Assembly: GCA_017409455.1 (NCBI GenBank)
Contig: JAFQSS010000010.1
Span: 4,696 to 68,695, forward strand
Reading direction: 5' to 3'
Origin: Clostridia bacterium
Lineage (GTDB): Bacteria; Bacillota; Clostridia; TANB77; CAG-508
DNA length: 64,000 nucleotides
The notes beneath the pieces are model-generated. The model worked only from the letters and a program-made list of their open reading frames with translations. It made no database searches and was not told the origin of the DNA. Shown here one piece after another: positions 11,601-44,292 of the stretch (position 1 is its first letter; each line of letters starts with the position of its first letter). A program made the translations under genes and the position numbers.

Positions 11601-11629
11601 TTGCAAATAGAACGTAAGTATGCTATAAT
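11601..11629 (+). promoter_or_regulatory. sigma-A promoter of the interrupted tRNA-Arg gene
   Basis: TTGCAA (11601-11606), 17-nt spacer, TATAAT (11624-11629). It ends 16 nt before the tRNA 5' end. Confidence 0.65.
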
Positions 11630-11645: not shown

Positions 11646-11685
<40 letters not shown>

Positions 11686-11764
11686 AATTTCCTAAACATT
11701 AGGTTGAGGACTAGCAAAATCCTTATGAAATAAGGGATGGACAACAATATTGTATAAAAAAATA

Positions 11765-11782
11765 TCGCAAAAATGTCGCGAA
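11765..11782. promoter_or_regulatory. TCGC(A/G)AAAATGTCGCGAA motif, left-arm copy
   Basis: Near-identical copies at 53526-53543 (right arm) and 48211-48227 (internal promoter). Confidence 0.5.
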
Positions 11783-11796
11783 AAACTGTCCCTGTC

Positions 11797-11816
11797 TTTA
11801 AAAAATTCAAACAGTA
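11797..11816. repeat. arm-type repeat TTTAAAAAATTCAAACAGTA (left arm)
   Basis: An identical 20-mer lies at 53589-53608. Shorter AAAAAWTCAAAC-like copies lie nearby at both ends. Confidence 0.65.
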
Positions 11817-11867
11817 TTTAAAAAAATCAAACTCATTTTAGCATTTATATGTTAAAATGAATTAAAT

Positions 11868-11944
11868 GTCCTCGTAGCATAATAGGAGAATGCAGTCGCC
11901 TCCTAAGCGACAGATTGGAGGTTCAAATCCTCTCGGGGACGCCA
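11868..11944 (+). tRNA. tRNA-Arg(CCT), ICE-borne
   Basis: Hand-folded 77-nt cloverleaf: acceptor GTCCTCG/CGGGGAC, anticodon stem GTCGC/GCGAC, loop CTCCTAA, T-arm GGAGG-TTCAAAT-CCTCT, encoded CCA. An extended -10 (TGTTAAAAT) lies at 11850-11858. Confidence 0.85.
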
Positions 11945-12021: not shown

Positions 12022-12168
12022 ATGAAAAAGATAAAACTAAAAGTTGATAGCACAGATTATAAAATTATCATAAATGCGTTAGTAGAATTTAGGAATAAGT
12101 TAATTTCAGAAAAAAGAGATACAACTCCTATTGATGATATACTATTGAATTTAGTTGATAAATTATAA
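12022..12168 (+). CDS. small ICE protein (48 aa), paralogue of 32488..32679
   Basis: GGAGAG RBS. MKKIKLKVDSTDYKIIINALVEFRNKLISEKRDTTPIDDILLNLVDKL. It shares the Y..I.INAL..FRN.LI.EKR.T.P.D..LL pattern with the other copy. A terminator follows at 12177-12203. Confidence 0.6.
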   Translation: MKKIKLKVDSTDYKIIINALVEFRNKLISEKRDTTPIDDILLNLVDKL

Positions 12169-12280: not shown

Positions 12281-13111
12281 ATGTCACAATGTGAAGTAAT
12301 TGCTATTGCAAATCAAAAGGGTGGAGTAGGAAAAACTACTACTGCATTAAGTCTAGGTGTAGCACTTGCAAAAGAGGGAAAGAAAGTGTTATTGGTAGAT
12401 GCCGATCCACAAGCAAGTTTAACAACTTGTATGGGATGGCATAATCAAGATGAATTATCAATAACATTATCTACACTTTTATATCGCTATATGGAAGATA
12501 AAACACTTAATACAAAGGAGTGTATTTTACACCATAAAGAGAATATTGATTTAATCCCGTCTAGCATAGAACTTGCAACAACGGAAGTAGATTTAATGAG
12601 TGCAATGAGTAGGGAATATGCTTTAAAGAGTTGCTTATCAGAAATTAAGAATAATTATGATTATATTCTAATAGATAGTATGCCGAGTTTAGGTATGATG
12701 ACTATAAATTCATTAGCAAGTGCAGATAAAGTAATAATACCTGTTCAACCGCATTATCTTGCAGCAAAAGGAATGACTTATTTGTTTTCTACAATTTCAA
12801 AAATTAGAAAACAGATAAATCCAAAGTTAAAAATTGATGGAATATTATTAACAATAGTTGATAAAAGAACTAATCTATCAAAAGAAATAAGACAACAACT
12901 GCAAGAAAATTATGGTAGTGTAATAAAAATCTATGATACCCAGATACCACAAGCAATAAAGGTAGCTGAATCCACTACGAGAGGAAAAAGTATTTTATCT
13001 TATGATAAGAGTGGAAAGGTAGCAGAGGCTTATAATTCCATAGCAAAGGAGGTGTTAGAGAGTGGAAAAGAAAGAAACAAAAATACCTTTACCAAAGATG
13101 AATCTAGATGA
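12281..13111 (+). CDS. parA: ParA/Soj-family partition ATPase
   Basis: Deviant Walker A IANQKGGVGKTTT and VDADPQ. Confidence 0.88.
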   Translation: MSQCEVIAIANQKGGVGKTTTALSLGVALAKEGKKVLLVDADPQASLTTCMGWHNQDELSITLSTLLYRYMEDKTLNTKECILHHKENIDLIPSSIELATTEVDLMSAMSREYALKSCLSEIKNNYDYILIDSMPSLGMMTINSLASADKVIIPVQPHYLAAKGMTYLFSTISKIRKQINPKLKIDGILLTIVDKRTNLSKEIRQQLQENYGSVIKIYDTQIPQAIKVAESTTRGKSILSYDKSGKVAEAYNSIAKEVLESGKERNKNTFTKDESR

Positions 13112-14009
13112 TTTGTTTAGCACACAAGAAGAAAGAGATAATGCTAATTTAGAAAAAGTAGTTGAAGTTAAATTAACAGATATCACTGATTTTCCAAATC
13201 ACCCATTTAAAGTAAAAGATGATGATGAAATGGATAAAATGCGACAAAGCGTTGAGCAATATGGTGTAGTTCACCCAATATTAGTTAGACCAACAAAAGA
13301 TGGAAAATATGAAATGATTTCAGGACATAGAAGAAAAAGAGCAAGTGAACTAGCAAATAAAGAAACTATACCTTGTATTGTTAGAAACTTATCAGATGAT
13401 GAGGCTACAATAATAATGGTAGATAGTAATATGCAAAGGGAAGAAATATTACCTAGCGAAAAGGCTTTTGCTTATAAAATGAAATTGGACGCATTAAATC
13501 ATCAAGGAAAAAGGAATGATTTAACTTGTGGACAAGTTGGCCACAAGTTAGAAAATAATAAAAGTAGAGATATTATTGCAGAAAACTCAGAAGATAGTGC
13601 TAGACAAATTCAAAGATTTATAAGACTTACTGAATTGATACCAGAGTTATTAGAAATGGTAGATGATAAAAAGATAGCATTTAATCCAGCAGTAGAAATA
13701 TCATATCTTGATGAAGATAATCAGTATGCATTACTAGATTGCATAGAGTATTCAGATGCGACACCATCACACGCACAAGCAATAGTGATGAAAAAATTAT
13801 TTCAATCTGGCGAGTTAGACGCAGATAAAATTGATGATATTTTGTCAGAAGAAAAACCTAATCAAAAACAAAAGATTAAGTTTGATAATGACAGGATTAG
13901 AAATGTTCTACCAAAAAACATTGAAGAACCTAAAATTGAGGATTTTGTTGTTAAAGCAATAGAGCATTACAGCAAGTATTTAAGACAACGAGAAATGGGT
14001 GCAAGATAA
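13062..14009 (+). CDS. parB: ParB/Spo0J-family protein (ParB-like nuclease domain)
   Basis: HPILVRP...YEMISGHRRKRA ParB box. AAGGAGG lies 7 nt before the GTG. The gene overlaps parA. Confidence 0.85.
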   Translation: MEKKETKIPLPKMNLDDLFSTQEERDNANLEKVVEVKLTDITDFPNHPFKVKDDDEMDKMRQSVEQYGVVHPILVRPTKDGKYEMISGHRRKRASELANKETIPCIVRNLSDDEATIIMVDSNMQREEILPSEKAFAYKMKLDALNHQGKRNDLTCGQVGHKLENNKSRDIIAENSEDSARQIQRFIRLTELIPELLEMVDDKKIAFNPAVEISYLDEDNQYALLDCIEYSDATPSHAQAIVMKKLFQSGELDADKIDDILSEEKPNQKQKIKFDNDRIRNVLPKNIEEPKIEDFVVKAIEHYSKYLRQREMGAR

Positions 14010-14174
14010 CAGGAGTATGTTTTCCGTAATTCCCTCCTTACAATCCTCCCTAGTTATATTACTAACTATTATTTACTAACTGAAAAAAAGTTATAAATAA
14101 TAAACTAAATAAAACGCAGTAATGCAAAAAATTATTTTTGTAGATACAATGAAATCAAAGGGAAGGTGGTTTGT

Positions 14175-14825
14175 ATGAAGAAAATTGTTTTAATAACAGT
14201 TCTGGTAATTGTAATTGGTGGTAGTTCAGTAGTTGCAATTATGTTTGCTAAACAAAAAACTAGCAATTCTGGTGTTTACGAAGAAATACCAAAAAATGGA
14301 CAAAAAATTGAAGATAACATAGTTCCTGAAATTGTTGAGGAAAGTGTTGTTGAAGAAGAAAAGGTAGTTGAAAGCAAAAAAGAAACTACAAACACAAAGC
14401 GAGTAAAAGAAGATGTTGTAGTTCAAGAAGAAATAAAAAGTAACTCTACTAACAAAACTGAAAATGTTGAGAAGATACCAGAAGAAACGAAACAAAATGA
14501 AAATAAGCAGCAAGAGATTATTCAGCAAAATGATACTAAAAGCGAAATTGAGGAAAAACAAGAAGAAAATGCACCATTGGTTGAAGAATCTAAACAAGTT
14601 GAGAAAGTAGAACAAGAGAAAAAGCCAGAAGTTGATGAAGAATACGAAAGGCTAATGAAACAAGTTGAATATGCAACATACGAAGAATGTTTACAAGCAG
14701 GATTTGATATTGCTTTAACTGACACAGTTAATATTTTAGGCTTTGATCCAGTAGAAATTATCTACAAAGGTAAAGTAATTGGCTACAAACTAAAAATACG
14801 ATATACAAATCCAATGGAAAATTAA
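14175..14825 (+). CDS. membrane-anchored E/K-rich protein
   Basis: An ATG at 14175 behind GGGAAGG is preferred over the GTG at 14166. One TM helix, then low-complexity E/K/Q. Confidence 0.55.
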   Translation: MKKIVLITVLVIVIGGSSVVAIMFAKQKTSNSGVYEEIPKNGQKIEDNIVPEIVEESVVEEEKVVESKKETTNTKRVKEDVVVQEEIKSNSTNKTENVEKIPEETKQNENKQQEIIQQNDTKSEIEEKQEENAPLVEESKQVEKVEQEKKPEVDEEYERLMKQVEYATYEECLQAGFDIALTDTVNILGFDPVEIIYKGKVIGYKLKIRYTNPMEN

Positions 14826-14881
14826 ATATTTATAAGCAAAGGCAATCAGAGATGGTTGCTTTTTTATTTTAGAAAGGAAAG

Positions 14882-17800
14882 ATGAAAAGTATGAAAAAGA
14901 GAAAAATATTATCTATGTTTCTGCTTATTTTTACTTTATTTGGAGTTTTTAATTTTTTTAATCCATCAGAAGTAAAAGCAGCAACATATAATGAAACATT
15001 ATCACATCCTAAAACTCCAAATGTCTATTATACTAGACGAGGTGGAGGAAAACCTTATTTATCAGCACAATATGAGCAATATACAATGAATGGAAAAGTT
15101 GTTTATTGTATTGAGCCGGGTGTAGATATAACAAATACGGCATATTTAGGATATGATGGATTACAAGTGTCACCTTATGATGATGCAACAAATAAAAAAA
15201 TAGAGTTAATAGGACACTATGGATATGATTATCCGGGACACCAAACATTAAGATATAGAATGGCAACACAAGCATTGATTTGGGAAACAACAGGAGGTCA
15301 AATAATTGAATTTTGGACAGAACAATATGGTTATGGCGACCCAATTAATGTTAGTGCAGAAAGAAATGAAATAATGAGATTAGTAAATGCTCATTATAGT
15401 AAACCAAGTTTTAATGGTAGTTCTATGGAAGTTATAATAGGTAAAGAATATAAAATTACTGATAATAATGGTTTAATGAGTGAATATGAATTATATAAAG
15501 CAGATAATCTAAAAGTAAGAATAGAGGGTAATGATATATATGTTACGCCACTAGCAACAGGAAACCTTACTTTAAGTGTTGTAAGAAAGCATTATGATAA
15601 TCATACAACCATCGTTTATCACGGAGAAGATGCTACTTCACAAAAAATGGGATTTTTTAGATTTTCAGACCCAGTTGTTGCATCAGTAAATTTTAATGTT
15701 TTAGGTGGTAAAATCCAAATCAAAAAAGTAGATTCAGAAACAAATTCTACAACACCACAGGGACAAGCAACATTAGTAGGTGCTAAATATAATGTAATGA
15801 ATTCAAGTGGAAGTGTTGTATCTACGTTAACTATTGGTGATGATATGACTGCTACTACAAGCAATTTACCATTAGGCACTTATACAATAAAAGAGGTGTC
15901 AGCACCAAAGGGTTATGAATTAGATAATACAACTTATACAGTAACAGTTAATTCAGGTGATACAGTTAATATAACAGTTAAAGATAATGTTATTAAAAAC
16001 TATATCAGTATTCTAAAACAATATGACTATGTTAATGGAAATACAACATTCTTAAATGCAGAGGCAAATATTACTTTTGAAATATTCTATCCAGATGGAA
16101 CAAAATATAGTGAGATCAAAACTGATAAAAATGGTTATGCTACTATTGAAATTCCTTACGGAGTATGGAAATTCCATCAAGTAAATAGCAACACAGGATT
16201 TGAAAAAATTTATGATTTCTATATTACAGTAGATGAGAATAGTGAGAAAGAACAATATTATAATATTTTAAATAATAAAATATCTGCATATCTTCAAGTA
16301 TTTAAGAAAGATAGTGAAACAGGTAAAACAATAGCAATAGCAAATACAAAATTCAAAATATTAAATACTGACACTAATCAATATGTTAGCCAATATGTAG
16401 GTGGAAAAGTATATGATAATTTCTTAACAGATGAAAATGGTACTTTTACAACATATTTAAGATTAGAGGCAGGTAATTATAAGTTGGTTGAAATTGAAAG
16501 TCCAAAAGGTTATTTGATTTCAAAGGATGGATTAAAGTTTACTATTGGGGAAGATACAGAATATAACTACACAACTTATGGTGCTATTGTAGTTGTAGAA
16601 TTTAAAAATACACCAATAAAAGGACAAGTAGAGATATTTAAAACTGGCGAAAAGTTTGTAGCAGAAGATGGAACTTTTAAATATCAAGATATTAAATTAA
16701 ATGGAATAAAGTTTAATTTATATGCAGATGAAGATATTAAATCAGCTGATGGTAATTATTTATATTACAACAAAGGGGATTTAGTAGAAACACTTATAAC
16801 TAATGAAGATGGTTATATTAAAAGTAAGAAACATCCACTAGGAAAATATTATTTAGTAGAAGTAGAAACAAAAGATAATTTTGTTTTAGATACAAAAGAA
16901 TATCATTTTGAACTAACTGAAAAAGATAATAAAACTGCTATTGTATATGATACTTACAAAGCATTTAATTATTTGAAAAAAGGAACGCTAGAATTTACTA
17001 AAATAGATTATTCTACAAGTGAGCCAATACCAAATGTAGAATTTAAAATATATACTGAAAAAGATGAGTTAATTTATTCTGGTAAAACTGATGAAAACGG
17101 AAAAATTATAATTAAAGATTTAGCCGTTGGAAAATACTATATAGTTGAAGTAAATCCTATTGAGGGTTATGTATCTTCTGATGAAAAGGTATTATTTGAA
17201 ATAAAAGAAAATGGCGAAATAGTAAAAGCAGAAATGACTAACAAAAAAATATCTTCAACATTAAAGATTACAAAAGATGATGAAGAAGGATCATTATTAT
17301 CTGGTGTTAAGTTTGGAGTTTATAATTTAGAAGATAAACTAATAAGCGAACACACAACAGATGAAAATGGATATTTTGAAGTTGTTTTAGAATATGGAAA
17401 ATATTATTTCAAAGAAATATCTACACTAGACTCTTATGTTTTAAATGATGAGAAAATCTATTTTGAGGTAGTTGAAGAAGGTGCAGTAATTGAAAAAACT
17501 ATTACAAATAAATTTAGAACAGGAACGCTAGAATTTACTAAAACTGATTTAGCAAATGGCGAAGTTATTCCAAATACTCTAATTGAAATTTATAATTCAA
17601 AAGATGAACTTGTTTTCTCTGGTAAGACTGATGAAAAAGGAAAAGTAATCATTGAAGAATTAAGATATGGAAAATACTATATCATTGAAAAAGAAGCTGC
17701 AACAGGTTTTGTAATTACAGATGAGAAAGTATATTTTGAAATATTAGAGAATGGAAAAATAGTAAAAGCAGAAATGAAAAACAGACCTATTTATGGAACG

Positions 17801-18184
17801 CTAGAATTTATTAAAACTGATATTTCTACAAGTGAGCCACTTCCTAATACTGTTATAGAAATATATACAGAAAATGATGAACTTGTTTTTTCTGGTAAAA
17901 CTGATGAGAACGGAAAAGTAATCATTGAAGAATTAAGATATGGAAAATACTATATTTTAGAAAAGGAAGCACCAGAGGGGTATATTTTAACAGAAGAAAA
18001 AATGGCATTTGAAATATTAGAAGATGGCGAAATCGTTAAGGCAACAATGGTTAATGAAAAGGTAGTAATTGAAGTACCTAATACAGGATTAAATGATTAT
18101 TTTGTATTAGAAATAATATCTGGATTGTTAATGTTAAGTGGAATAGGAGTGATTATTTATGCTAAAAAGAAAAACAAAAAATAA
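14882..18184 (+). CDS. cell-wall-anchored adhesin: thioester (TQXA) domain plus multiple Cna-B/SpaA-type repeats, VPNTG sorting signal
   Basis: Signal peptide. VVYCIEPG (candidate thioester Cys) and ATQALIWE (TQxA-type Gln). Many ~90-aa GTLEFTKTD..GKYY..E repeats. C-terminal VPNTG plus TM plus KKKNKK. Confidence 0.8.
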   Translation: MKSMKKRKILSMFLLIFTLFGVFNFFNPSEVKAATYNETLSHPKTPNVYYTRRGGGKPYLSAQYEQYTMNGKVVYCIEPGVDITNTAYLGYDGLQVSPYDDATNKKIELIGHYGYDYPGHQTLRYRMATQALIWETTGGQIIEFWTEQYGYGDPINVSAERNEIMRLVNAHYSKPSFNGSSMEVIIGKEYKITDNNGLMSEYELYKADNLKVRIEGNDIYVTPLATGNLTLSVVRKHYDNHTTIVYHGEDATSQKMGFFRFSDPVVASVNFNVLGGKIQIKKVDSETNSTTPQGQATLVGAKYNVMNSSGSVVSTLTIGDDMTATTSNLPLGTYTIKEVSAPKGYELDNTTYTVTVNSGDTVNITVKDNVIKNYISILKQYDYVNGNTTFLNAEANITFEIFYPDGTKYSEIKTDKNGYATIEIPYGVWKFHQVNSNTGFEKIYDFYITVDENSEKEQYYNILNNKISAYLQVFKKDSETGKTIAIANTKFKILNTDTNQYVSQYVGGKVYDNFLTDENGTFTTYLRLEAGNYKLVEIESPKGYLISKDGLKFTIGEDTEYNYTTYGAIVVVEFKNTPIKGQVEIFKTGEKFVAEDGTFKYQDIKLNGIKFNLYADEDIKSADGNYLYYNKGDLVETLITNEDGYIKSKKHPLGKYYLVEVETKDNFVLDTKEYHFELTEKDNKTAIVYDTYKAFNYLKKGTLEFTKIDYSTSEPIPNVEFKIYTEKDELIYSGKTDENGKIIIKDLAVGKYYIVEVNPIEGYVSSDEKVLFEIKENGEIVKAEMTNKKISSTLKITKDDEEGSLLSGVKFGVYNLEDKLISEHTTDENGYFEVVLEYGKYYFKEISTLDSYVLNDEKIYFEVVEEGAVIEKTITNKFRTGTLEFTKTDLANGEVIPNTLIEIYNSKDELVFSGKTDEKGKVIIEELRYGKYYIIEKEAATGFVITDEKVYFEILENGKIVKAEMKNRPIYGTLEFIKTDISTSEPLPNTVIEIYTENDELVFSGKTDENGKVIIEELRYGKYYILEKEAPEGYILTEEKMAFEILEDGEIVKATMVNEKVVIEVPNTGLNDYFVLEIISGLLMLSGIGVIIYAKKKNKK

Positions 18185-18824
18185 TAATCAAAGAAAGGGT
18201 CAACTTTTTATAGTTGGCTCTTTTCTTATAATTATAGGAATAGGAATTTTAGGTGGAAAGATAGTGAATAATTATTTAGATAAAAAGCAAGAACAAGACT
18301 TAATAAATGATTTTTATGAACAACAAGAAGAATATGTTGTAGATGTTCCTGTAATGGAAGAAGAATTAGTAAAAGAAGAAGTTGCAGAGCAAGAAGAAAA
18401 GAAAGAAAAAACTACTCCGACTATAAACTATATTGCAGTTATTAAAATACCTAAAATTGGTTTAGAAAAAGGATTAGCAAGTAAAGGTAGTTATTGGAAC
18501 AATGTGAATAGAAATATTGAAATATTATCTGAATCAGATATGCCAGATGTAGATAAAGGCAATGTTATATTAGCAAGTCATAGTGGTAATAGTAGCATAT
18601 CTTATTTTAGAAAACTAAATAAACTACAAAATGATGACATTGTAAGTATTGTTTACAATGGAAAAGAGTATAAATACAAAATGGTTAATTCTTATGAAAT
18701 AGAAAAAAATGGTTATGCTCATATAGTTAGAAATGCAGAAAAAAGCACTTTAACTTTAATAACTTGTAAGCATAATACAGATAAACAAATTGTTGTTATT
18801 TGTGAATTAGTAGAAGTTATATAG
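18159..18824 (+). CDS. sortase (dedicated to the adjacent adhesin)
   Basis: N-terminal TM helix, ILASHSG and the LTLITC catalytic-Cys motif. Overlaps the adhesin 3' end. Confidence 0.8.
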   Translation: MLKRKTKNNNQRKGQLFIVGSFLIIIGIGILGGKIVNNYLDKKQEQDLINDFYEQQEEYVVDVPVMEEELVKEEVAEQEEKKEKTTPTINYIAVIKIPKIGLEKGLASKGSYWNNVNRNIEILSESDMPDVDKGNVILASHSGNSSISYFRKLNKLQNDDIVSIVYNGKEYKYKMVNSYEIEKNGYAHIVRNAEKSTLTLITCKHNTDKQIVVICELVEVI

Positions 18825-18835
18825 GAGGGATTTAA

Positions 18836-28870: not shown

Positions 28871-28979
28871 ATCCCCTATAAAAATACAAAGAAAAAATAG
28901 GAATAATTAAGGTTAGTAAATTTAAAATATTTACTAGCCTTTTTTTGTTGCCAAAAAAAGAAAGAGAGGAAAGAAAATT

Positions 28980-29162
28980 ATGAGTGAATTATTATTTTTT
29001 ATATTAGGTTTAATTATTGGAGGATTAGTGATGACAACTTTAATGTGTTGCTTACAAATTAACAGACTAAATGAATATGAAAGATTACTTTTAATGAGAG
29101 ATAAAAACGAAGATGAAGAAGAACAGGGAACGGAGGTGGTGCAATGTCAAATCGTGGAATAA
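28980..29162 (+). CDS. small membrane protein
   Basis: 60 aa, one TM helix, GAGAGGAAAG RBS. Confidence 0.45.
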   Translation: MSELLFFILGLIIGGLVMTTLMCCLQINRLNEYERLLLMRDKNEDEEEQGTEVVQCQIVE

Positions 29163-29485
29163 GAAAACAGATTTGGTTAAATCGTGATGAAGATTTAATG
29201 CTAAAAAGAAAAGCAGAACTTGCTAATATGAATGCATCAGAATTGATACGAAGTTTAATTATGGGATATGAGCCACAAGCTAAACCTCCGATAGAATTTT
29301 ATGAGATGATAAAACAATTAAGAAAGTTAGGAAGTAATCTAAACCAAATTGCTATGAAAGCACACGGATTAGGATTTATAGATGAACTCGCTTACAAAAA
29401 GGAAGTAGAAAAAATAGATAATCTTATATTAGAAATTAAAAAACAATTTTTATTACCAAAAAAAGTAGAAGAAGAAGATTTTTAA
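29144..29485 (+). CDS. mobC: MobC-family relaxosome accessory protein
   Basis: GSNLNQIAMKAHGLG matches the MobC NLNQIA motif. Lies directly upstream of the relaxase. Confidence 0.75.
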   Translation: MSNRGIRKQIWLNRDEDLMLKRKAELANMNASELIRSLIMGYEPQAKPPIEFYEMIKQLRKLGSNLNQIAMKAHGLGFIDELAYKKEVEKIDNLILEIKKQFLLPKKVEEEDF

Positions 29486-29508
29486 AATATTTATATGGGA
29501 GGTATGAA

Positions 29509-30849
29509 ATGGCAACAACAGGAATATGGAAAATTGAAAAGAGATTAGATAATGTATTGAATTATACAACTAATGCAGAAAAGACAATGAGTGATGAAAG
29601 TTATAGAGAATTACACAATGTTATTGAATACATTGAGTCAGATTATAAAACAGAAGAACAACACTATGTTACTGGAATAAATTGTTCGCCATCTACTGCA
29701 CTTGAAGAAATGACTATAACAAAAAAAGAATATAACAAAACTGGTGGTATTTTAGCATATCACGCTTTTCAATCTTTTGCAGAGGGAGAAGTAACACCAG
29801 AACAAGCACACGAAATAGGAATTAAATTAGCAGAAGAAATGTGGGGCAATAGATTTGAAGTTGTTGTTTCTACTCACTTAAATTCAAAACATTTTCATAA
29901 TCACTTTGTTATAAACTCTGTATCATTTGCAGATGGGAAAAGGTATTACAATAAAAGAGAAACTTATGCAGAAATTCGCAGAATATCTGATGCACTTTGT
30001 GAAGAATATGGATTAAGTGTAATACAAGAAAAGCCGTGTAGAAATAGTAAAGTGAATTATCTTAAATATCAAAAAGAGTATGTAGAAAAGAATAATTACT
30101 ATACAACTGCAAAACAAGATTTAGATCGTGCGATAGCAATGGCATACAATTATGAAGATTTTGAAAAGTTAATGAAAGCAATGGACTATGAACTTATTTA
30201 TAGAGCAAATAAATTAAGTATAAAAAGGAGTCCATATAAAAAGAATATTCGCATACAAAGATACTTTGGCGAAGAATATAGTATAGATAATATTACAGAT
30301 AGAATTTCAAAAACTTATGCACCAAGAGTTCCATTTATGGAGGCTTATGGAATAAATACAAAATATTATCCTATTAACTTAAAGAAAAGACCACCTAGCA
30401 CAGGAATATATGGATTATATTTGCATTATTGTTATTTATTAAAGGTATTTCCACAAAAACATAAATATCAAAAATTACCTCCATCAATTCGTGCAGATGT
30501 TAGAAAAATGGATATGATAGCAGAAGAAGTAAGACTGCTCGTTAGTAAAGAAATAAATACTAATGAGCAGTTTTTTTCATATAAAAAAGAAATTGTAGAT
30601 AAGTATGAAGATTTAATGACTAAAAGAAGTAGGTTGTGGAATCAGCATAAGAAATCTAAAAGCAAAAATGAAAAAGAGTCAATTCATCTTCAAATTGAAG
30701 AAATAAATAAAGAATTGAATCCACTACGAAAGGAGGTGGGACTATGTGATGATATAGAAAAAAGAATACCTACTATAAGGAAAAACCTAGATAAATTTTA
30801 TTCAGAAAATGAAAGAAAGGAAGTGAGTAAAGATGAGCACATCAGGTGA
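29509..30849 (+). CDS. relaxase / mobilisation nuclease (MobA/VirD2 family)
   Basis: AYHAFQSF, VVSTHLNSKHFHNHFVINS histidine triad, 446 aa. Confidence 0.85.
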   Translation: MATTGIWKIEKRLDNVLNYTTNAEKTMSDESYRELHNVIEYIESDYKTEEQHYVTGINCSPSTALEEMTITKKEYNKTGGILAYHAFQSFAEGEVTPEQAHEIGIKLAEEMWGNRFEVVVSTHLNSKHFHNHFVINSVSFADGKRYYNKRETYAEIRRISDALCEEYGLSVIQEKPCRNSKVNYLKYQKEYVEKNNYYTTAKQDLDRAIAMAYNYEDFEKLMKAMDYELIYRANKLSIKRSPYKKNIRIQRYFGEEYSIDNITDRISKTYAPRVPFMEAYGINTKYYPINLKKRPPSTGIYGLYLHYCYLLKVFPQKHKYQKLPPSIRADVRKMDMIAEEVRLLVSKEINTNEQFFSYKKEIVDKYEDLMTKRSRLWNQHKKSKSKNEKESIHLQIEEINKELNPLRKEVGLCDDIEKRIPTIRKNLDKFYSENERKEVSKDEHIR

Positions 30850-31594
30850 TGCAGCAGAATCAATTATTAGAATGAGTTTACAAGGAATAGAAGTTGCAGC
30901 AAGAATATCTGGAAGTGGTGCAAAAAATGTTGCAGTTTTACTTTGTGCTATGCTAAAAGAACAAGAAAAAGTAAAAGGAAAAACTAAACTTGTAAATATG
31001 CTTAAATCTGGAAAAGAATTAAAAGTATTTTCAGTTAAGTATGATGATTTGAAAAAATTTACAGAAGAAGCTAAAAGATATGGGGTTTTGTTTAGTGTTT
31101 TAATTGATAAAAAACAAAAAAATCAAGATGGTATGGTAGATATTATGGTTAAGGCAGAAGATGCCGGTAAGATCAATCGTATAGTTGAAAGATTTAATTT
31201 AGCAACTATTGATACAGCAAGTATTAAAAGTGATATTCAAAAATCAAAAGAAAGCAAAGATAAAGGCATTGAAATCAAGAGTGTTGAAGAAAAACTTGTT
31301 GATGATATTTTATCAAAGCCAATAAGTAAGGAGGAAAATGAAATATCAAACCCCCAAGTGGCAAAGACAGAAAAAAGCCCTCTGTCAGAGCCTTTATTAG
31401 AGAACAAAAGAAAGTTAGAGGAGGGTGCTAAAATGGAAAAGCCTTCTGTTAGAGAAAAAATAAAAGAAATCAAAAAAGAAAGAATGGCAAAACCAGAATT
31501 AGATAAATCTAGCAAAGAAAAAGAAAAGAAATCTAAAAATAAAACTACAAAGCACAAAAATAAAAACAAAAAGAAAAAGGAAAGAGGTAGATAA
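30833..31594 (+). CDS. PcfB-family protein (DUF3801)
   Basis: N-terminal IRMSLQGIEVAARISGSGAKNVAVLL. K/E-rich tail. Confidence 0.65.
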   Translation: MSTSGDAAESIIRMSLQGIEVAARISGSGAKNVAVLLCAMLKEQEKVKGKTKLVNMLKSGKELKVFSVKYDDLKKFTEEAKRYGVLFSVLIDKKQKNQDGMVDIMVKAEDAGKINRIVERFNLATIDTASIKSDIQKSKESKDKGIEIKSVEEKLVDDILSKPISKEENEISNPQVAKTEKSPLSEPLLENKRKLEEGAKMEKPSVREKIKEIKKERMAKPELDKSSKEKEKKSKNKTTKHKNKNKKKKERGR

Positions 31595-31597
31595 TAA

Positions 31598-32476
31598 ATG
31601 AATAATATTGATGAAATTATTAAAAGTAATAACTCAAATAGTAAATCATTTGATAGAGATAGTTGGGTAAAGAAAAAACAAGAAGAAAGAACAATGGCAT
31701 ATAAGTTAATGGACGCAACTGCTGATACAATTAGTAAAGATGATAGTTTATTTAAAATGTATTTAGATATACAAGGTAGTTTCGATAAATATTCAGTTGG
31801 GAATTGTCTATTGATAACTTCACAAATGCCAAATGCTACACAAATTAAAGATTTTGAAGGTTGGAAAGAGGCAGGAACATTTATTAAGAAAAACGCAAAA
31901 AGTATAACTATATTAGAGCCGGGCGACCAATATACAAGAGCAGATGGAACAGTATCAACTTCATATAATCCTAAAAAAGTATTTGATATATCACAAACAA
32001 ATATGAAATCTAAAACTAGAAATGTGTCTATGGCAGATAAAACAAAATTAACTGCAATATTAAATGAATGCCCTGTTGATGTAAAAGTTGTTGATGATAT
32101 ATCTGGAACAACTAGACTTGCTGAATGGAATAAAGAGGATAATGTGTTATATGTTAGAAAAAATGAAGATATACACTCAACATTTGTTCAATTAGCACAA
32201 GAACTTTCAAGAGCAGGATTAGAAACAACTGGTAATACTGAATTAGATGATTTTAAATCTTCTTGTATTGCTTATATGGTATGTAAAAAACATAGTGTAG
32301 ATGTTGCTAATTATGAACTAAAAACAATACCAAACTCAATGAAAAATATGACACCATCAGAAGTTAGAAACGAATTAAGTTCTATGAGAAGTACAATGGA
32401 AGATATAAATGGTAGAATAAGTCAGCATTATGAGAAAATGGCGAAAACACAAAAAAATAAAGATTACGAAAGATAG
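31598..32476 (+). CDS. ArdC-N-like ssDNA-binding domain protein
   Basis: YSVGNCLLITSQMPNATQIKDFEGWKEAGTFIKKNAKSITILEP parallels the N-domain of the polyvalent protein (NDQILIYAQRPTATSCAEIETWNKSVGRWVNKGAKGIALI). Confidence 0.5.
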   Translation: MNNIDEIIKSNNSNSKSFDRDSWVKKKQEERTMAYKLMDATADTISKDDSLFKMYLDIQGSFDKYSVGNCLLITSQMPNATQIKDFEGWKEAGTFIKKNAKSITILEPGDQYTRADGTVSTSYNPKKVFDISQTNMKSKTRNVSMADKTKLTAILNECPVDVKVVDDISGTTRLAEWNKEDNVLYVRKNEDIHSTFVQLAQELSRAGLETTGNTELDDFKSSCIAYMVCKKHSVDVANYELKTIPNSMKNMTPSEVRNELSSMRSTMEDINGRISQHYEKMAKTQKNKDYER

Positions 32477-32487
32477 GAGGTTATTAA

Positions 32488-32679
32488 GTGATGGAAGATG
32501 AAAAAGTATTAGTTCTTGATAAATACGAATTAGGTATAGTTATAAATGCTTTAAATCAGTTTAGAAATCAACTTATACGCGAAAAGAGAATAACAGAGCC
32601 AGTTGATGAAGTATTACTGAAAGCAATTGATGCCCCAGATAAGAAAAAAGGATTTAGCAAGAAGAAAGAAGAAAGATGA
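32488..32679 (+). CDS. small ICE protein, paralogue of 12022..12168
   Basis: AGGAGG RBS. Contains KYELGIVINALNQFRNQLIREKRITEPVDEVLL. Confidence 0.6.
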   Translation: MMEDEKVLVLDKYELGIVINALNQFRNQLIREKRITEPVDEVLLKAIDAPDKKKGFSKKKEER

Positions 32680-34478
32680 ACGAAGAAGTTAATCAAATCC
32701 CGAAATGGGTATATGCCATAGGTTTGATTCCTACGATATGGTTAGCACTTTTAATTGCTCCATCTATAAGTGGTGGATTACCACAGATTATTAAGGATTT
32801 TCCTACTATAATGGAGAATCCTTTTAATATATCTTTTTGTTCAGATAGTATAAAAGTTATTTTAATATTTATTGTAATGTATGTAATGGCAATAAGTATA
32901 TATTTAGGAACAAGAAAGAATTATCGTAGGAGAGAAGAACACGGCTCTGCAAAATGGGGCAGTGCAAGTAGTGTTAATAAAAAGTATTGTCAAAATCCCA
33001 TTTCAGATAATAAGTTATTAACTCAATATGTTTCATTAGGGTTAAATGGAAAAATACACAGAAGAAATTTGAACGTATTGGTATGTGGCGGAAGTGGTTC
33101 CGGCAAAACGAGATTCTATTGTAAACCTAATATAATGCAAGCTAACACTTCTTTTGTTGTATTAGACCCAAAAGGTGAAATAGTAAGAGATACAGGACAT
33201 TTATTAGAAAAAAAAGGTTATGAAGTAAGAGTTTTAGATTTAATAAATATGGAAAAAAGTCATTGCTATAATCCGTTTGTTTATCTTAAAACTGATAATG
33301 ATGTTCAAAAATTAGTAACTAATTTATTTAAAGCAACAACACCAAAAGGGTCATCTAGCAATGATCCTTTTTGGGATACTGCTGCATCAATGTTATTATT
33401 AGCATTGATTTTTTATTTGAAGTATGAAGCACCAGAAGAAGAACAAAACTTTCCAATGGTTATGGAATTGTTAAGAGTAGGCGAAGTTCACGAAGATGAA
33501 GAAAACTATATTAGTCCATTAGATGTATTGTTTAATGAATTAGAAACAAAAGAGCCAGAGCATATAGCAGTTAAATATTATAGAGATTATCATAGTGGCT
33601 CTGCTAAAACATTAAAATCTATTCAGATAACATTAGCCTCACGATTAGAAAAGTTTAATCTTCAAACACTTGCTTCATTAACTGCTACTGATGAATTAGA
33701 CTTGCCATCATTAGGAGAAAAGAAAGTTGCTTTATTTGCACTTATTCCAGATAATGATACAAGTTTTAATTTTTTAGTAAGTATTTTATATACACAACTG
33801 TTTCAGCAGTTGTTTTTTTTAGCCGACCATAAATATGGTGGTAGCCTACCAGTTCACGTTCATTTTGTAATGGACGAATTTGCGAATGTATCATTACCAG
33901 ATGACTTTGACAAGATTTTATCTGTAATGAGGTCAAGGTCAGTATCAGTAAGCATAATATTACAAAATCTAGCCCAATTAAAAGCACTATTTGAAAAACA
34001 ATGGGAAAGTATTGTAGGAAATTGTGATGAGTTTTTATATTTAGGGGGAAATGAACAATCCACTCATAAATATGTAAGTGAACTTTTAGGGAAAGAAACT
34101 ATTGATACTAATACTTATGGAAAAAGTACAGGGCATAGTGGTAGTTATTCTACTAATTATCAAATTAGTGGTAGAGAGTTAATGACTCCTGATGAAGTAC
34201 GATTACTTGATAATAGATATGCACTTTTATTTATAAGAGGCGAAAGACCAATAATGGATTTTAAGTATGATATTTTGAAACATCCTAATGTAGCAATGAC
34301 TACTGATGGTAAGGAAAAACCTTATAAACACGGAGAAACAGAAAATGCTATTGCATCAATAGTATTTGATGAAAATATTGATAACTATGATTTCTCAAAT
34401 ATTGAAGAAATTGTAGGCGATTTTGAAATTATATCTTCAGAAGATATAGAAGAATATTTAAAAGGAAAAGGAGAATAG
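32676..34478 (+). CDS. type IV coupling protein (VirD4/TraG family)
   Basis: Two N-terminal TM helices, Walker A VCGGSGSGKT, Walker B-like FVMDEFAN. Confidence 0.88.
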   Translation: MNEEVNQIPKWVYAIGLIPTIWLALLIAPSISGGLPQIIKDFPTIMENPFNISFCSDSIKVILIFIVMYVMAISIYLGTRKNYRRREEHGSAKWGSASSVNKKYCQNPISDNKLLTQYVSLGLNGKIHRRNLNVLVCGGSGSGKTRFYCKPNIMQANTSFVVLDPKGEIVRDTGHLLEKKGYEVRVLDLINMEKSHCYNPFVYLKTDNDVQKLVTNLFKATTPKGSSSNDPFWDTAASMLLLALIFYLKYEAPEEEQNFPMVMELLRVGEVHEDEENYISPLDVLFNELETKEPEHIAVKYYRDYHSGSAKTLKSIQITLASRLEKFNLQTLASLTATDELDLPSLGEKKVALFALIPDNDTSFNFLVSILYTQLFQQLFFLADHKYGGSLPVHVHFVMDEFANVSLPDDFDKILSVMRSRSVSVSIILQNLAQLKALFEKQWESIVGNCDEFLYLGGNEQSTHKYVSELLGKETIDTNTYGKSTGHSGSYSTNYQISGRELMTPDEVRLLDNRYALLFIRGERPIMDFKYDILKHPNVAMTTDGKEKPYKHGETENAIASIVFDENIDNYDFSNIEEIVGDFEIISSEDIEEYLKGKGE

Positions 34479-34482
34479 GAAT

Positions 34483-34818
34483 ATGAAAAAAGAAACTAAA
34501 AAATTACAATTAAGTAAGAGAGGAAAAAAATTATTTAAAATGTATGCAATGGCAATTTGTATAGGTGCTTTAACAGTTGGAACAAGTATGAATGTTCTAG
34601 CTGCAGATGACCCTATGACAGTTGTAAATAATTTATCTGATTTTATCTTTGGTTTAATCAGAGCAGTAGGTATGATTATACTAGGATTTGGTATAGTTCA
34701 AGTGGGATTATCATTAAAGAGCCACGATCCTAGCCAAAGAGCAAATGGATTCTTAACATTAGCAGGTGGAATTGTAATAACATTTGCAAAAGAAATTCTT
34801 AATATGATTACAGGGTAA
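34483..34818 (+). CDS. Maff2-family membrane protein
   Basis: Signal/TM helix, then LSLKSHDPSQRANG, which is typical of Maff2 (from memory). Confidence 0.65.
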   Translation: MKKETKKLQLSKRGKKLFKMYAMAICIGALTVGTSMNVLAADDPMTVVNNLSDFIFGLIRAVGMIILGFGIVQVGLSLKSHDPSQRANGFLTLAGGIVITFAKEILNMITG

Positions 34819-34878
34819 TTATCAATGGGCAAGAATAAAAACTTGCCCTAATTTTTATTATACAAGGAGGTGTTAATA

Positions 34879-35715
34879 TTGAGTGATAATTGGGTAGTGC
34901 AGAACTTACAAAATGCACTAGATACTTGGAATTCAAAATTAAGTGAAATATGGACTTTAATAACACAAACACCAGAAACATTTAAAGGTGGTGCGATATG
35001 GAATACAATTCTTAATATTCACGGGGCAGTTCAAGCAATAGGACTTGCTTTATTAGTTTTGTTTTTTGTAGTTGGTGTAATGAAAACTTGTGGCTCGTTT
35101 GCAGAAGTTAAAAAGCCAGAACACGCATTAAAACTCTTTATTAGATTTGCGATAGCAAAAATAGTAGTAACCTATGGATTAGATTTATTGCTATCTTTAT
35201 TTAAAATAGTTCAGGGAGTTATAGGAACGATAATGAATGCATCTGGATTTGGTAGTGCAACACAGACAGTAATGCCACAAGAAATTATTACAGCAGTAGA
35301 AAGTTGTGGATTTTTTGAAAGCATACCATTATGGGCAGTAACTTTAATTGGTGGATTATTAGTAACAGTATTATCTTTTATTATGATAATGACAGTATAT
35401 GGTAGATTCTTCAAATTATACTTATATACTGCAATATCACCAATTCCATTATCTACTTTTGCAGGAGAGCCTACACAACAAGTAGGAAAGAGTTTTATTA
35501 AATCATATTGTGCAGTTTGTTTAGAGGGTGCAATAATTGTGTTGGCTTGTATTATATTTTCATTATTTGCATCTAGTCCACCAGTTGTAGATACAAGTGC
35601 AGCAGCAGTAACGCAAGTATGGAAATATATAGGCGAATTAGTATTTAATATGCTTGTATTAGTTGGAACTGTGAAAATGTCAGATAGAGTTGTAAGAGAA
35701 ATGATGGGATTATAG
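34879..35715 (+). CDS. polytopic conjugation membrane protein (CD1112/VirB6-like)
   Basis: The TTG at 34879 lies 8 nt after AAGGAGG. The GTG at 34870 overlaps the SD. Multiple TM helices. Confidence 0.6.
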   Translation: MSDNWVVQNLQNALDTWNSKLSEIWTLITQTPETFKGGAIWNTILNIHGAVQAIGLALLVLFFVVGVMKTCGSFAEVKKPEHALKLFIRFAIAKIVVTYGLDLLLSLFKIVQGVIGTIMNASGFGSATQTVMPQEIITAVESCGFFESIPLWAVTLIGGLLVTVLSFIMIMTVYGRFFKLYLYTAISPIPLSTFAGEPTQQVGKSFIKSYCAVCLEGAIIVLACIIFSLFASSPPVVDTSAAAVTQVWKYIGELVFNMLVLVGTVKMSDRVVREMMGL

Positions 35716-35732
35716 GAAAGGAATGAATTATT

Positions 35733-36947: not shown

Positions 36948-36955
36948 TGATTTAA

Positions 36956-37177
36956 TTGGAAGAAAAAGAAAGCGTAAAGGCTTTATTTAATACAAAAATT
37001 GCTAGTGATATGCAATACAATGGTAAAATTGTTACTATTCTTGATTATATAAAAGGTAAGGATATTTATTGTGATAGATATGTTGTTAAATTTCCAGATG
37101 GAACTATAAAAGATAATATTATGAGTTGTGAACTCAATTTTAATTATAAACAAAAAAATAGAGAAAGGAGTAGATAA
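36956..37177 (+). CDS. hypothetical small protein
   Basis: TTG start coupled to the upstream stop, 73 aa. Confidence 0.45.
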   Translation: MEEKESVKALFNTKIASDMQYNGKIVTILDYIKGKDIYCDRYVVKFPDGTIKDNIMSCELNFNYKQKNRERSR

Positions 37178-37179
37178 AA

Positions 37180-37551
37180 ATGGAAGTCAAGATAAATAGA
37201 GAAATAAGAGATTATACAGAAAGTATATTTTTTGGACTGTCAATGCGACAGTTCTTTTTTTCTGTAATGGCTTGTGGAGTAGCAGTGCTACTCTATTTTT
37301 TATTAAAAGGAAAGTTTGGAATTGAAACATTATCTTGGGTATGTATTTTAGGTGCTGCACCTTTTGCTGCACTTGGATTTATAACATACAACGGAATGAC
37401 TGCTGAAAAGTTTATTTATGCTTGGATTAAATCAGAGTTTTTAATTCCTAAACATTTAACTTTTAAACCAACAAATTATTACTATGAATTATTAAAAGAC
37501 AAAATTGAAAAGGAGGATTTAAAGAATGAAAACATTGAAAATGTTGTTTAA
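37180..37551 (+). CDS. PrgI-family T4SS membrane protein (VirB3-like)
   Basis: Two TM helices. Lies directly upstream of, and overlapping, the VirB4 ATPase. Confidence 0.65.
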   Translation: MEVKINREIRDYTESIFFGLSMRQFFFSVMACGVAVLLYFLLKGKFGIETLSWVCILGAAPFAALGFITYNGMTAEKFIYAWIKSEFLIPKHLTFKPTNYYYELLKDKIEKEDLKNENIENVV

Positions 37552-39859: not shown

Positions 39860-39874
39860 TAGGAGGTGTAGAAA

Positions 39875-41419: not shown

Positions 41420-41466
41420 GACAAAAAAAGTAATAAAGTTAGTTGATTCTAATTTTATTACTTTTT

Positions 41467-41492
41467 ATTTTTATATAAAGTTTGACACTTTA
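41467..41492. repeat. 26-bp inverted repeat, left copy (IR-L)
   Basis: ATTTTTATATAAAGTTTGACACTTTA is the perfect reverse complement of 42850-42875. Confidence 0.9.
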
Positions 41493-41688
41493 TTTATACA
41501 AGGTTTTCACTTCTAGCTTTTACAATTATACCATATTTTGTCGAATTTGACATTAATTTAGTGAAAATTTTTTAAATTTTTGAATTTTATATTACAAAAA
41601 ACGATAAATACCGCATTTTGCAAGAGAAAATTAAATATTTTTCAGTCAAAATTCTGGTAATAAATTTTATTAATTAGGAAGGAGAATT

Positions 41689-44276: not shown

Positions 44277-44292
44277 GGAGGAAAAGTTAAAT

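What the first reader, a model, noticed from the sequence alone, without database searches (positions are those of the whole stretch)
11868..11944. ICE carries a replacement tRNA-Arg(CCT) 180 bp inside attL, with an anticodon stem-loop identical to the gene it disrupts
A complete 77-nt tRNA-Arg(CCT) with its own extended -10 (TGTTAAAAT at 11850-11858) sits just inside the left end. Its acceptor, D and T arms differ from the host gene, so it is not a duplication of the target. However, the 19 nt CAGTCGCCTCCTAAGCGAC (anticodon stem-loop) are identical to the host tRNA. Two consequences follow. (a) The element appears to compensate for the AGG decoder it inactivates, a self-complementing integration strategy rather than the usual 3'-end regeneration. 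(b) The element itself carries a perfect copy of its own attB core, which could serve as a landing pad for tandem accretion or for intramolecular recombination.
Basis: partly seen in the sequence, partly recalled or inferred. Interest (0 to 1): 0.7.

Follow-up and report, generated by a model that had tools for sequence, protein, structure and literature searches.

The report
ICE that splits tRNA-Arg, carries spare
A 42-kb conjugative element has cut the host's tRNA-Arg(CCU) gene in two at the anticodon loop and brings its own complete copy of that tRNA beside its attachment site, a "split-and-replace" trick so far described only for some phages.

Summary
A complete tRNA-Arg(CCT) lies at 11868-11944, 182 bp inside the left end of a 42-kb ICE (11686-53681). 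The ICE has split the host tRNA-Arg(CCT) into a 5' half (11646-11685) and a 3' half (53682-53725). The two junctions share only 8 bp, CTCCTAAG (anticodon loop plus G39), so nothing is regenerated.

The integrase is a 584-aa tyrosine recombinase with an excisionase next to it. Nearly the same ICE left end sits in at least 7 different host tRNA-Arg(CCT) genes, always with the intact ICE tRNA. More distant elements share the arm and tRNA but carry other cargo. Backbone relatives that use other recombinases have no such tRNA.

The tRNA is far better conserved than its flanks and keeps its cloverleaf through compensatory changes. A decayed mini-element still retains it. The tRNA therefore belongs to a portable integration module.

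The 19-nt identity is specific to this host; only the 8-bp core is general. This is the ICE counterpart of phage "tRNA-dependent lysogeny" (mBio 2024). Expression, host dependence and the tRNA-Arg(CCG)-targeting sister clade's cargo were not tested. A sister element inserted into another element's tRNA supports the landing-pad idea.

The parts
11601..11629 (+). Promoter of the host tRNA-Arg(CCT) gene (TTGCAA, 17-nt spacer, TG-TATAAT). It still points into the truncated 5' half and onward towards the ICE tRNA.
   Evidence: sequence
11646..11685 (+). 5' half of the split host tRNA-Arg(CCT) (acceptor 5' strand, D arm, anticodon stem 5' strand, loop plus G39). This is the host side of attL.
11678..11685 (+). 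Core copy CTCCTAAG at attL (anticodon loop C32-A38 plus G39)
11686..11867 (+). Left (P') arm of the attachment site. It holds the arm-type repeats AAAAWTCAAAC at 11802-11812 and 11822-11832, a TCGCAAAAATGTCGCGA motif at 11765-11781, and a second loop-like TTCCTAAAC at 11689-11697.
   Evidence: conserved at 66-72% in L082-L084
11850..11858 (+). Extended -10 (TGTTAAAAT), ending 9 nt upstream of the ICE tRNA. It resembles the native promoters of host tRNA-Arg(CCT) genes.
   Evidence: for example the L139 host: TGTTAAAAT, then 9 nt, then GTCCTCG
11868..11944 (+). ICE-borne complete tRNA-Arg(CCT) with encoded CCA, A20 and discriminator G
12022..12168 (+). 48-aa ORF, the first gene of the ICE backbone, followed by a hairpin terminator at 12177-12197
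12281..51281 (+). ICE body: ParA, ParB, thioester/SpaA adhesin with sortase, 2389-aa SNF2 helicase, NikA and MobA/VirD2-type relaxase (Pfam PF03432), T4CP, PrgI, VirB4-like ATPase, CHAP hydrolase, a second tyrosine recombinase, surface repeat proteins, regulators and PemK
51297..51617 (+). Excisionase (HTH_17 / TIGR01764)
51632..53386 (+). Tyrosine integrase, 584 aa (SAM-like domain at about 170-230, catalytic domain at 292-482)
53387..53681 (+). Right (P) arm of the attachment site: GTCGCGAAAATGTCGCGA at 53525-53542 and arm-type repeats at 53594-53604 and 53646-53656
53682..53725 (+). Core copy CTCCTAAG (53682-53689) plus the displaced 3' half of the host tRNA-Arg(CCT) (attR)

Best explanation
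The tRNA-Arg(CCT) at 11868-11944 is the replacement part of a portable "split-and-replace" integration module. The module consists of Xis, a 584-aa tyrosine integrase, a bipartite attP with arm-type sites, and a complete tRNA gene placed directly after the P' arm. The integrase recombines an 8-bp core (CTCCTAAG, anticodon loop plus G39) in attP with the same 8 bp in any tRNA-Arg(CCT) gene. Nothing beyond the core is shared, so the host gene is left as two dead halves at attL and attR. The ICE's own tRNA then supplies the AGG decoder. It is transcribed from its own extended -10 and possibly also by read-through from the surviving host tRNA promoter 240 bp upstream. Using only the isoacceptor-invariant loop as attB, and not having to build a chimeric tRNA, lets the same element enter many hosts whose tRNA-Arg(CCT) stems differ. 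Shown here: the junctions, the 8-bp core, the integrase type, the co-travel of arm and tRNA, and purifying selection on the cloverleaf. Inferred: expression, charging, and any fitness need for the replacement.
For: Junction anatomy. Rejoined halves pair 100% in the cloverleaf. An integrase copy with a 99% identical protein (P0001) and the same right arm apart from a few base differences abuts two further tRNA-Arg(CCT) 3' halves (L075/76, L077). An integrase identical to the window's abuts a fourth 3' half (L148). The ICE left end occurs in at least 7 hosts with different 5' halves. Each ends at CTCCTAAG and is followed by the same 181-182-bp arm and the intact tRNA. Four more divergent attL junctions (L082-L085) have the same layout but different downstream cargo. 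tRNA identity to the window copy is 91-100%, against 66-72% for the arm in L082-L084 and 50-60% downstream. T-stem and acceptor changes are compensatory, with 168 of 168 cells paired. The decayed 1.3-kb mini-element in L085 has lost its integrase but keeps the tRNA intact. Relatives of the conjugation backbone that use serine or other recombinases lack the tRNA. Arm-type repeats AAAAWTCAAAC occur 4 times in the window, only in the two ICE ends, against 0.68 expected. The phage precedent has the same logic (PMC10865867).
Against: There are no expression or aminoacylation data. The host is a metagenomic scaffold, so another intact tRNA-Arg(CCT) elsewhere in the genome cannot be excluded. tRNA-Arg(UCU) may read AGG weakly (general knowledge), so loss of the host gene may be tolerable. 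The promoter is an extended -10 only. The decisive covariation test could not be run: does the tRNA-Arg(CCG)-targeting sister clade, core CTCCGAAG, L096-L103, carry a tRNA-Arg(CCG)? Its left ends were out of reach. In L085 the attL loop reads CTTCTAAG, so that target may have been tRNA-Arg(TCT), which a CCT tRNA would not fully replace.
Confidence: 0.8

Rival explanations
1. The tRNA is ordinary cargo. It either boosts translation of AGG-rich ICE genes or acts as a spare that resists host or phage anticodon nucleases, as proposed for many phage tRNAs. Its match to the target gene is secondary.
For: Phage tRNAs are known to serve such roles (discussion in PMC10865867; PMC11555353 listed). The ICE tRNA differs from host tRNAs in the D arm, which could alter recognition by a nuclease.
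Against: AGG use is the same in ICE genes (7.8% of Arg codons, 2.9 per 1000 codons) and host genes (9.0%, 2.5 per 1000); Fisher p = 0.6. The tRNA is always the isoacceptor that the element destroys. It always sits against the P' arm. It follows the integrase module, not the cargo or the backbone.
Confidence: 0.08
2. The tRNA gene matters as DNA, not as RNA. It is a built-in second attB (a landing pad or decoy) that captures incoming related elements or permits alternative intramolecular recombination.
For: It contains the full 8-bp core. Once the chromosomal gene is split, it is the only intact attB in the cell. In L119 a sister element (P0046 integrase, 71% identical) lies against the 3' half of a tRNA that is followed by the same hairpin and Rep-like gene unit found after the complete element-borne tRNA of L083. 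No P' arm intervenes. The simplest reading is insertion into another element's tRNA. L121, L124, L125 and L127 have a homologous flank.
Against: A DNA-only role needs just the loop. Yet the whole cloverleaf is preserved by compensatory substitutions, and the gene is much better conserved than the arm. None of the attR 3' halves next to the window-type, P0001 or P0022 integrases (window, L075-L077, L086-L092, L148), nor the L085 attR, is the 3' half of this ICE-type tRNA. This role can also coexist with the replacement function as a by-product.
Confidence: 0.07
3. The tRNA is a neutral passenger: a chromosomal tRNA-Arg(CCT) locus picked up once by imprecise excision and not yet lost.
For: Its upstream -10 and spacing look like native host tRNA-Arg(CCT) promoters, and its acceptor 5' strand GTCCTCG equals that of several hosts. 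Capture from a chromosome is therefore the likely origin.
Against: It persists unchanged or with compensatory changes across elements whose arms have diverged to about 70% and whose cargo is unrelated. It also survives in a decayed element. A neutral gene would have decayed like the split host halves; the L085 5' half now reads CTTCTAAG.
Confidence: 0.05

Closest known systems
tRNA-dependent lysogeny of actinobacteriophages (Fionnbharth K4, LeBron L1, Gaia X, BrutonGaster, Mollymur; Guerrero-Bustamante & Hatfull, mBio 2024, PMC10865867). The L. johnsonii prophage Lj965 is cited there as a possible case.
   Same: A tyrosine integrase acts on an attB inside a host tRNA gene. The common core is only 8-17 bp, so no functional tRNA is rebuilt. 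The element encodes a tRNA with the same anticodon as the disrupted gene. Arm-type sites flank the core.
   Different: Here the element is a conjugative ICE of low-GC Bacillota, not a phage. The integrase family is unrelated at the sequence level to anything in the phage and plasmid collections (at most 31% identity). The core is exactly the anticodon loop plus one base. The target is tRNA-Arg(CCT) (or CCG in a sister clade) rather than Lys, Ile2 or Leu. The tRNA gene is fused to the P' arm as one portable module. The same element is seen in many host species. Essentiality of the host tRNA is unknown here, whereas it was shown in M. smegmatis.
Canonical tRNA-regenerating islands and prophages with the crossover in the anticodon loop (Williams 2002 sublocation class, cited from memory and; for example the Anabaena 37-kb element in tRNA-Cys, bioRxiv 10.64898/2025.12.09.693284)
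   Same: A tyrosine integrase is used. The crossover lies in the 7-nt anticodon loop. The integrase gene sits at one end and there are direct repeats at both ends.
   Different: Those elements carry the 3' part of the tRNA contiguous with the core, so a full, partly foreign tRNA is rebuilt at one junction. Here the sequence after the core is arm DNA (AATTTCCTAAAC...) and the replacement is a separate, complete gene 182 bp away.
Site-specific ICEs of Bacillota that integrate at tRNA 3' ends (for example ICEBs1 in trnS-leu2, PMC3715440; TnSmu1, PMC10098952; streptococcal ICEs, PMC4701971). These papers were listed and their details are from my own knowledge.
   Same: These are conjugative elements with a Xis/Int module at one end, inserted in a tRNA gene. 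The Gram-positive conjugation gene set is similar (relaxase, T4CP, VirB4-like ATPase, CHAP hydrolase).
   Different: They preserve the target tRNA by duplicating its 3' end and do not need a tRNA of their own.

Membership tests
tRNA-dependent lysogeny / integration (PMC10865867) | A tyrosine-family integrase recombines attP with an attB overlapping a host tRNA gene | tested here: met
   Pfam Phage_integrase plus SAM-like domains. Junctions lie inside tRNA-Arg(CCT) in the window and in more than 20 related loci.
tRNA-dependent lysogeny / integration (PMC10865867) | The short common core (about 8-17 bp) means no functional tRNA is reconstructed at either junction | tested here: met
   The core is the 8-bp CTCCTAAG. 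ARAGORN finds no tRNA at attL or attR. The sequence after the core at attL is arm DNA.
tRNA-dependent lysogeny / integration (PMC10865867) | [quoted passage not shown] | tested here: met
   tRNA-Arg(cct) at 11868-11944. Present in all 8 close contexts and 4 distant ones.
tRNA-dependent lysogeny / integration (PMC10865867) | The element tRNA is required because the host tRNA is essential or single-copy | not testable with these tools
   The host is a metagenomic scaffold, so there is no whole genome and no genetics. The only indirect hint is that the tRNA is retained in the decayed element L085.
tRNA-dependent lysogeny / integration (PMC10865867) | The element is a temperate phage (lysogeny) | tested here: not met
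   The element encodes a relaxase, T4CP, VirB4-like ATPase, PrgI and CHAP hydrolase. No phage structural family was hit among the ORFs scanned. It works like the phage system but is an ICE.
Canonical tRNA-regenerating integrative elements (anticodon-loop class) | The crossover lies within the anticodon loop of the target tRNA | tested here: met
   The direct repeat CTCCTAAG equals positions 32-39.
Canonical tRNA-regenerating integrative elements (anticodon-loop class) | attP carries the tRNA 3' segment contiguous with the core, so an intact tRNA is restored at one junction | tested here: not met
   At attL the core is followed by AATTTCCTAAACATTAGG..., with no tRNA call.
Integrative and conjugative element (Gram-positive type IV secretion type) | Relaxase, coupling protein, VirB4-family ATPase, an integration/excision module, and bounding direct repeats in a chromosomal site | tested here: met
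   The ends are at 11686 and 53681, with the 8-bp repeat at both. Host repeats and genes resume outside.
tRNA (Rfam RF00005) | Covariance-model score above gathering, a cloverleaf with a 7-nt anticodon loop, and Arg identity elements | tested here: met
   64.9 bits against 29. All 21 pairs are standard in 5 variants. A20, C35, U36 and an encoded CCA are read from the sequence. The identity rules themselves are general knowledge and were not tested.

The most novel reading that the evidence does not exclude
This integrase family defines a host-independent "split-and-replace" module for conjugative elements. It uses only the isoacceptor-invariant anticodon loop as attB and supplies a whole tRNA, so it escapes the need to match each host's tRNA stems and gains a very broad host range. 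The element-borne tRNA then becomes the next attB, so related elements leapfrog into each other's tRNAs and build tandem arrays. As the split host halves decay (L085), the host becomes dependent on the element's tRNA, a form of tRNA addiction that stabilises the element. Sister clades retarget simply by changing core and tRNA together (CCT to CCG).
Probability: 0.35. Interest if true: 0.72.

Novelty: new variant of a known kind. Interest (0 to 1): 0.58.

Why it matters
Integration into tRNA genes is usually explained by the element rebuilding the gene it cuts. Genomic-island finders such as Islander rely on that regenerated gene plus a displaced fragment (PMC4383910). An ICE family that leaves two dead halves and carries a whole spare gene would be missed or mis-delimited by such tools.

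It extends tRNA-dependent integration from actinobacteriophages to conjugative elements of gut Bacillota. It also offers an explanation for broad host range: an 8-bp, isoacceptor-invariant attB. In addition it suggests simple routes to tandem accretion and to host dependence on an element-borne tRNA. Practically, the int-xis-attP-tRNA cassette could be a compact integration tool for hard-to-engineer low-GC anaerobes, as the phage versions are for mycobacteria.

Tried and rejected
1. I first expected a large serine recombinase because the core is so short. Pfam shows a tyrosine integrase plus an excisionase.

2. I looked for the tRNA in relatives of the conjugation backbone.
- ParA relatives in 66 genome loci carry no tRNA-Arg.
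- The closest (L006, L008) carry two ORFs of 571 and 528 aa upstream of ParA, read by eye as large serine recombinases and not scanned.
- ParA homologues at 76-77% identity (L107-L117) also lack it.
- Rep-like P0245 elements sit in a dacA-like gene without any tRNA.
The tRNA is therefore not a backbone trait.

3. IMG/VR scans found no relatives, whether for the ICE tRNA, the arm motif, the L121 3' half or the integrase. The phage and plasmid collections hold no integrase above 31% identity.

4. Codon-supply idea: AGG use is equal in ICE and host genes.

5. L148 comes from the same sample as L004 and looked like a tandem array. However, its 3' half matches the L142-type host 5' half, so it is simply another host.

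6. Reading L119 as a circular attP was rejected because no P' arm motifs follow the core.

L026 (tRNA-Cys near ParA) is just a host tRNA cluster.

Full report
**What is in the window**

ARAGORN finds a single tRNA gene in the 64 kb, tRNA-Arg(cct) at 11868-11944 on the + strand. Rfam's tRNA model scores it 64.9 bits against a gathering score of 29.

- At 11646-11685 lies the 5' part of a different tRNA, GTGCTCATAGCTCAGCAGGATAGAGCAGTCGCCTCCTAAG. It stops after the anticodon loop plus one base and runs into unrelated DNA.
- The missing part, CTCCTAAGCGACCGATGGTGGTTCGAGTCCGCCTGGGCACACCA, is at 53682-53725.
- Rejoined, the two pieces give a perfect cloverleaf.
- An uninterrupted gene differing by one base exists in an unrelated contig (L073).
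- The only sequence repeated at both junctions is CTCCTAAG, that is positions 32-39 of the tRNA.
- The 15-mer CAGTCGCCTCCTAAG occurs exactly twice in the window, where none is expected.

**The element**

The DNA between the junctions (11686-53681, 42 kb) encodes:
- ParA and ParB;
- a thioester/SpaA adhesin with its sortase;
- a 2389-aa SNF2 helicase;
- NikA plus a MobA/VirD2-type relaxase (Pfam PF03432);
- a VirD4-type coupling protein, PrgI and a VirB4-like ATPase;
- a CHAP hydrolase and regulators;
- a PemK toxin preceded by the pemK RNA motif;
- at the right end, an excisionase and a 584-aa tyrosine integrase.

It is an ICE. Outside it are ordinary chromosomal genes. To the left are a PP-loop ATPase and phosphoglucomutase. 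To the right are tadA, SRP RNA, dnaX, ybaB, recR and ypeB.

The motif AAAAWTCAAAC occurs four times in the window, twice in each ICE end and nowhere else, against 0.68 expected. Both ends also carry a GTCGCG...TGTCGCGA motif. These look like the arm-type sites of a lambda-like attP. The tRNA gene begins 35 bp after the last of them.

**Is the tRNA part of the element's way of life?**

Relatives of the conjugation backbone do not have it.
- About 50 genome loci with ParA relatives carry no tRNA-Arg.
- The nearest of these (L006, L008) have two ORFs of 571 and 528 aa upstream of ParA, which I read by eye as large serine recombinases and did not scan.
- ParA homologues at 76-77% identity also lack it.

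The integrase module behaves differently.
- An exact-protein look-up of the 48-aa ORF that follows the tRNA found almost the same ICE left end in at least seven different chromosomal contexts.
- Each context has a different truncated host tRNA-Arg(CCT) 5' half ending in CTCCTAAG, the same 181-182-bp arm, and the intact ICE tRNA.
- An integrase copy with a 99% identical protein, and the same right arm apart from a few base differences, abuts two further 3' halves. An identical integrase abuts a fourth.
- A metagenome scan for the ICE-type D arm gave four more junctions (L082-L085). All have the layout host 5' half, core, arm, complete tRNA, followed by unrelated cargo: a NUDIX gene, a Rep-like gene, or other sequence.

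Across these elements the tRNA is 91-100% identical. The arm is 66-72% identical in L082-L084, and the downstream DNA is unrelated.

- The T-stem differences (GGAGG/CCTCT versus GGGTG/CACCT) and an acceptor change (U5-G to C5-G) are compensatory.
- All 168 pair cells are standard pairs, and no shuffle reaches the observed covariation.
- L085 is a decayed 1.3-kb remnant with a truncated integrase, yet it keeps the tRNA intact.

The tRNA thus travels with int-xis-attP and is under selection as an RNA.

**What the core is, and what the 19-nt identity means**

The data contain 11 distinct host 5' halves and 13 distinct 3' halves. Their anticodon stems vary widely, for example AAGCT, AGTGC, ATCGC, ATTGC and ATCCC on the 5' side, and GTCTG, GGGAG and GGCGA on the 3' side. 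Only the window host and one close relative share the ICE tRNA's GTCGC/GCGAC stem.

The exact 19-mer also occurs in unrelated tRNA-Arg(CCT) genes, including one in a phage tRNA array. The 19-nt identity is therefore incidental. The sequence read by the recombinase is the loop plus G39.

This fits a simple rationale, which is inference. The loop of an isoacceptor is the one part that is the same in every host. An element that does not have to make a chimeric tRNA is freed from matching host stems.

**Rivals**

- Codon supply for ICE genes is not supported. AGG is 7.8% of Arg codons in the ICE and 9.0% in the host flanks (p = 0.6).
- A DNA-only role as a landing pad does not explain conservation of the whole cloverleaf.
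- A neutral captured fragment does not explain persistence across diverged modules and in a decayed element.
- The origin was probably a capture. The -10 and its spacing, and the acceptor strand GTCCTCG, look like native tRNA-Arg(CCT) loci of some hosts.

**The landing-pad idea**

Nothing in this window shows it, but a sister element does. The P0046 integrase (71% identical) with its right arm is joined at CTCCTAAG to tRNA 3' halves that are followed by element DNA.

- In L119 the order is 3' half, hairpin, Rep-like gene. This is homologous to the unit that follows the complete element-borne tRNA in L083, and no P' arm motifs intervene.
- The simplest reading is one element inserted into the tRNA of another. 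That is expected once the chromosomal attB has been destroyed.
- Several contigs end exactly at the core, as they would if the assembly graph branches there.

**Other family facts**

- The 78% clade (P0022) sits in at least six different tRNA-Arg(CCT) genes.
- The 67% clade (P0078) has the core CTCCGAAG, which is tRNA-Arg(CCG). Whether it carries a tRNA-Arg(CCG) is the decisive covariation test.

**Comparison with what is known**

The same logic was described in 2024 for actinobacteriophages as tRNA-dependent lysogeny. Its features are a tyrosine integrase, an 8-17-bp core, a host tRNA that is not rebuilt, and a cognate phage tRNA required for lysogeny. Closely related phages either regenerate the tRNA or replace it (PMC10865867). 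Prophage Lj965 is cited there as a possible earlier case.

Canonical anticodon-loop integrators rebuild the gene (for example). Four literature searches found no report of this strategy in a conjugative element. The integrase has no close relative in the phage, plasmid or IMG/VR collections.

I therefore file it as a new variant of a known kind. It works like tRNA-dependent lysogeny, but the element is an ICE of low-GC Bacillota. The tRNA is fused to the P' arm as a portable module, and the element is seen in many hosts.

**Limits**

There are no expression, charging or fitness data. The host genome is incomplete, so a second tRNA-Arg(CCT) cannot be excluded. tRNA-Arg(UCU) may partly cover AGG (general knowledge). 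The own promoter is an extended -10 only, although the host tRNA promoter at 11601-11629 still points at the ICE tRNA.

Noticed in passing
window 53706-53727 and 53805-53826: The last 22 nt of the host tRNA (GAGTCCGCCTGGGCACACCAAT) are repeated 99 bp downstream, start to start, and bracket 77 bp. This looks like the scar of an older element that used the T-loop/3' end of the same tRNA in the canonical regenerating way. IMG/VR contigs L072 and L073 carry intact host-type tRNA-Arg(CCT) genes.
   Followed up: partly
L004:1-600 (same host species, sample ERZ28019037): A different element abuts the same position of the same tRNA 3' half (...AATAGTGCC|CTCCTAAGCGACC). Its end has TTTCCCCA(A/G)TTTG and TTTAAAC repeats. 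The anticodon loop of this tRNA is therefore a hot spot for at least two element families. Whether that element also carries a tRNA is unknown.
   Followed up: partly
L096-L103 (downstream of the P0078 integrase): A sister integrase clade (67% identity) has the core CTCCGAAG and lies against 3' halves of tRNA-Arg(CCG) in at least three hosts. The target has switched within the family.
   Followed up: partly
L119:3280-4449; L121, L124, L125, L127: The right end of the P0046-type element is joined at the core to the 3' half of a tRNA that is followed by element DNA (a hairpin plus a Rep-like HTH_36 gene, as after the complete tRNA of L083). This is probably insertion of one element into another element's tRNA.
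   Followed up: partly
L093 and L094, about 340-400 nt after the integrase stop: An odd junction reads CTCCTAAGAGTTTCCTAAAC and then runs directly into the rest of a tRNA 3' part. The first 12 nt of the P' arm contain a second loop-like TTCCTAA (also at window 11689-11697). Either this second motif was used as the crossover with hosts whose loop is UUCCUAA, or it is a scar.
   Followed up: no
L085 (3.2-kb contig): A decayed mini-element with the order host murI, tRNA 5' half, 88-bp arm, intact element tRNA, NUDIX gene, guanylate-kinase fragment fused to an integrase C-terminal remnant, right arm, tRNA 3' half. The attL loop reads CTTCTAAG (anticodon TCT) while attR reads CTCCTAAG.
   Followed up: partly
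window 3916-3977, 8934-9022, 11506-11567, 61439-61473: Tandem 27-nt palindromic units (AAAAAGGGACCGGGTC...) occur in host intergenic regions. They are found only in the chromosomal flanks and never inside the ICE.
   Followed up: no
window 54498-54968; L077, L091, L092, L094, L095: tadA (tRNA adenosine deaminase family) lies just downstream of the target tRNA-Arg(CCT) in several different hosts, which suggests a conserved tRNA-Arg(CCT)-tadA neighbourhood.
   Followed up: no
window 41689-42780 and 42960-46401: A second, 363-aa tyrosine recombinase inside the ICE sits directly upstream of two repeat-rich surface proteins (Listeria-Bacteroides repeats; 594-nt DNA repeats). This could be a nested element or an inversion/variation system.
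   Followed up: no
window 49352-49432: The Rfam pemK RNA motif (61 bits) lies upstream of the PemK/MazF toxin gene at 49768-50139 in the ICE.
   Followed up: no
L006:6191-9449; L128-L136: The same conjugation backbones are combined with other integration modules. In L006, two ORFs of 571 and 528 aa lie upstream of ParA; I read them by eye as large serine recombinases and did not scan them. The Rep-like P0245 elements are inserted in a dacA-like carboxypeptidase gene. Integration modules are evidently swapped between backbones.
   Followed up: partly
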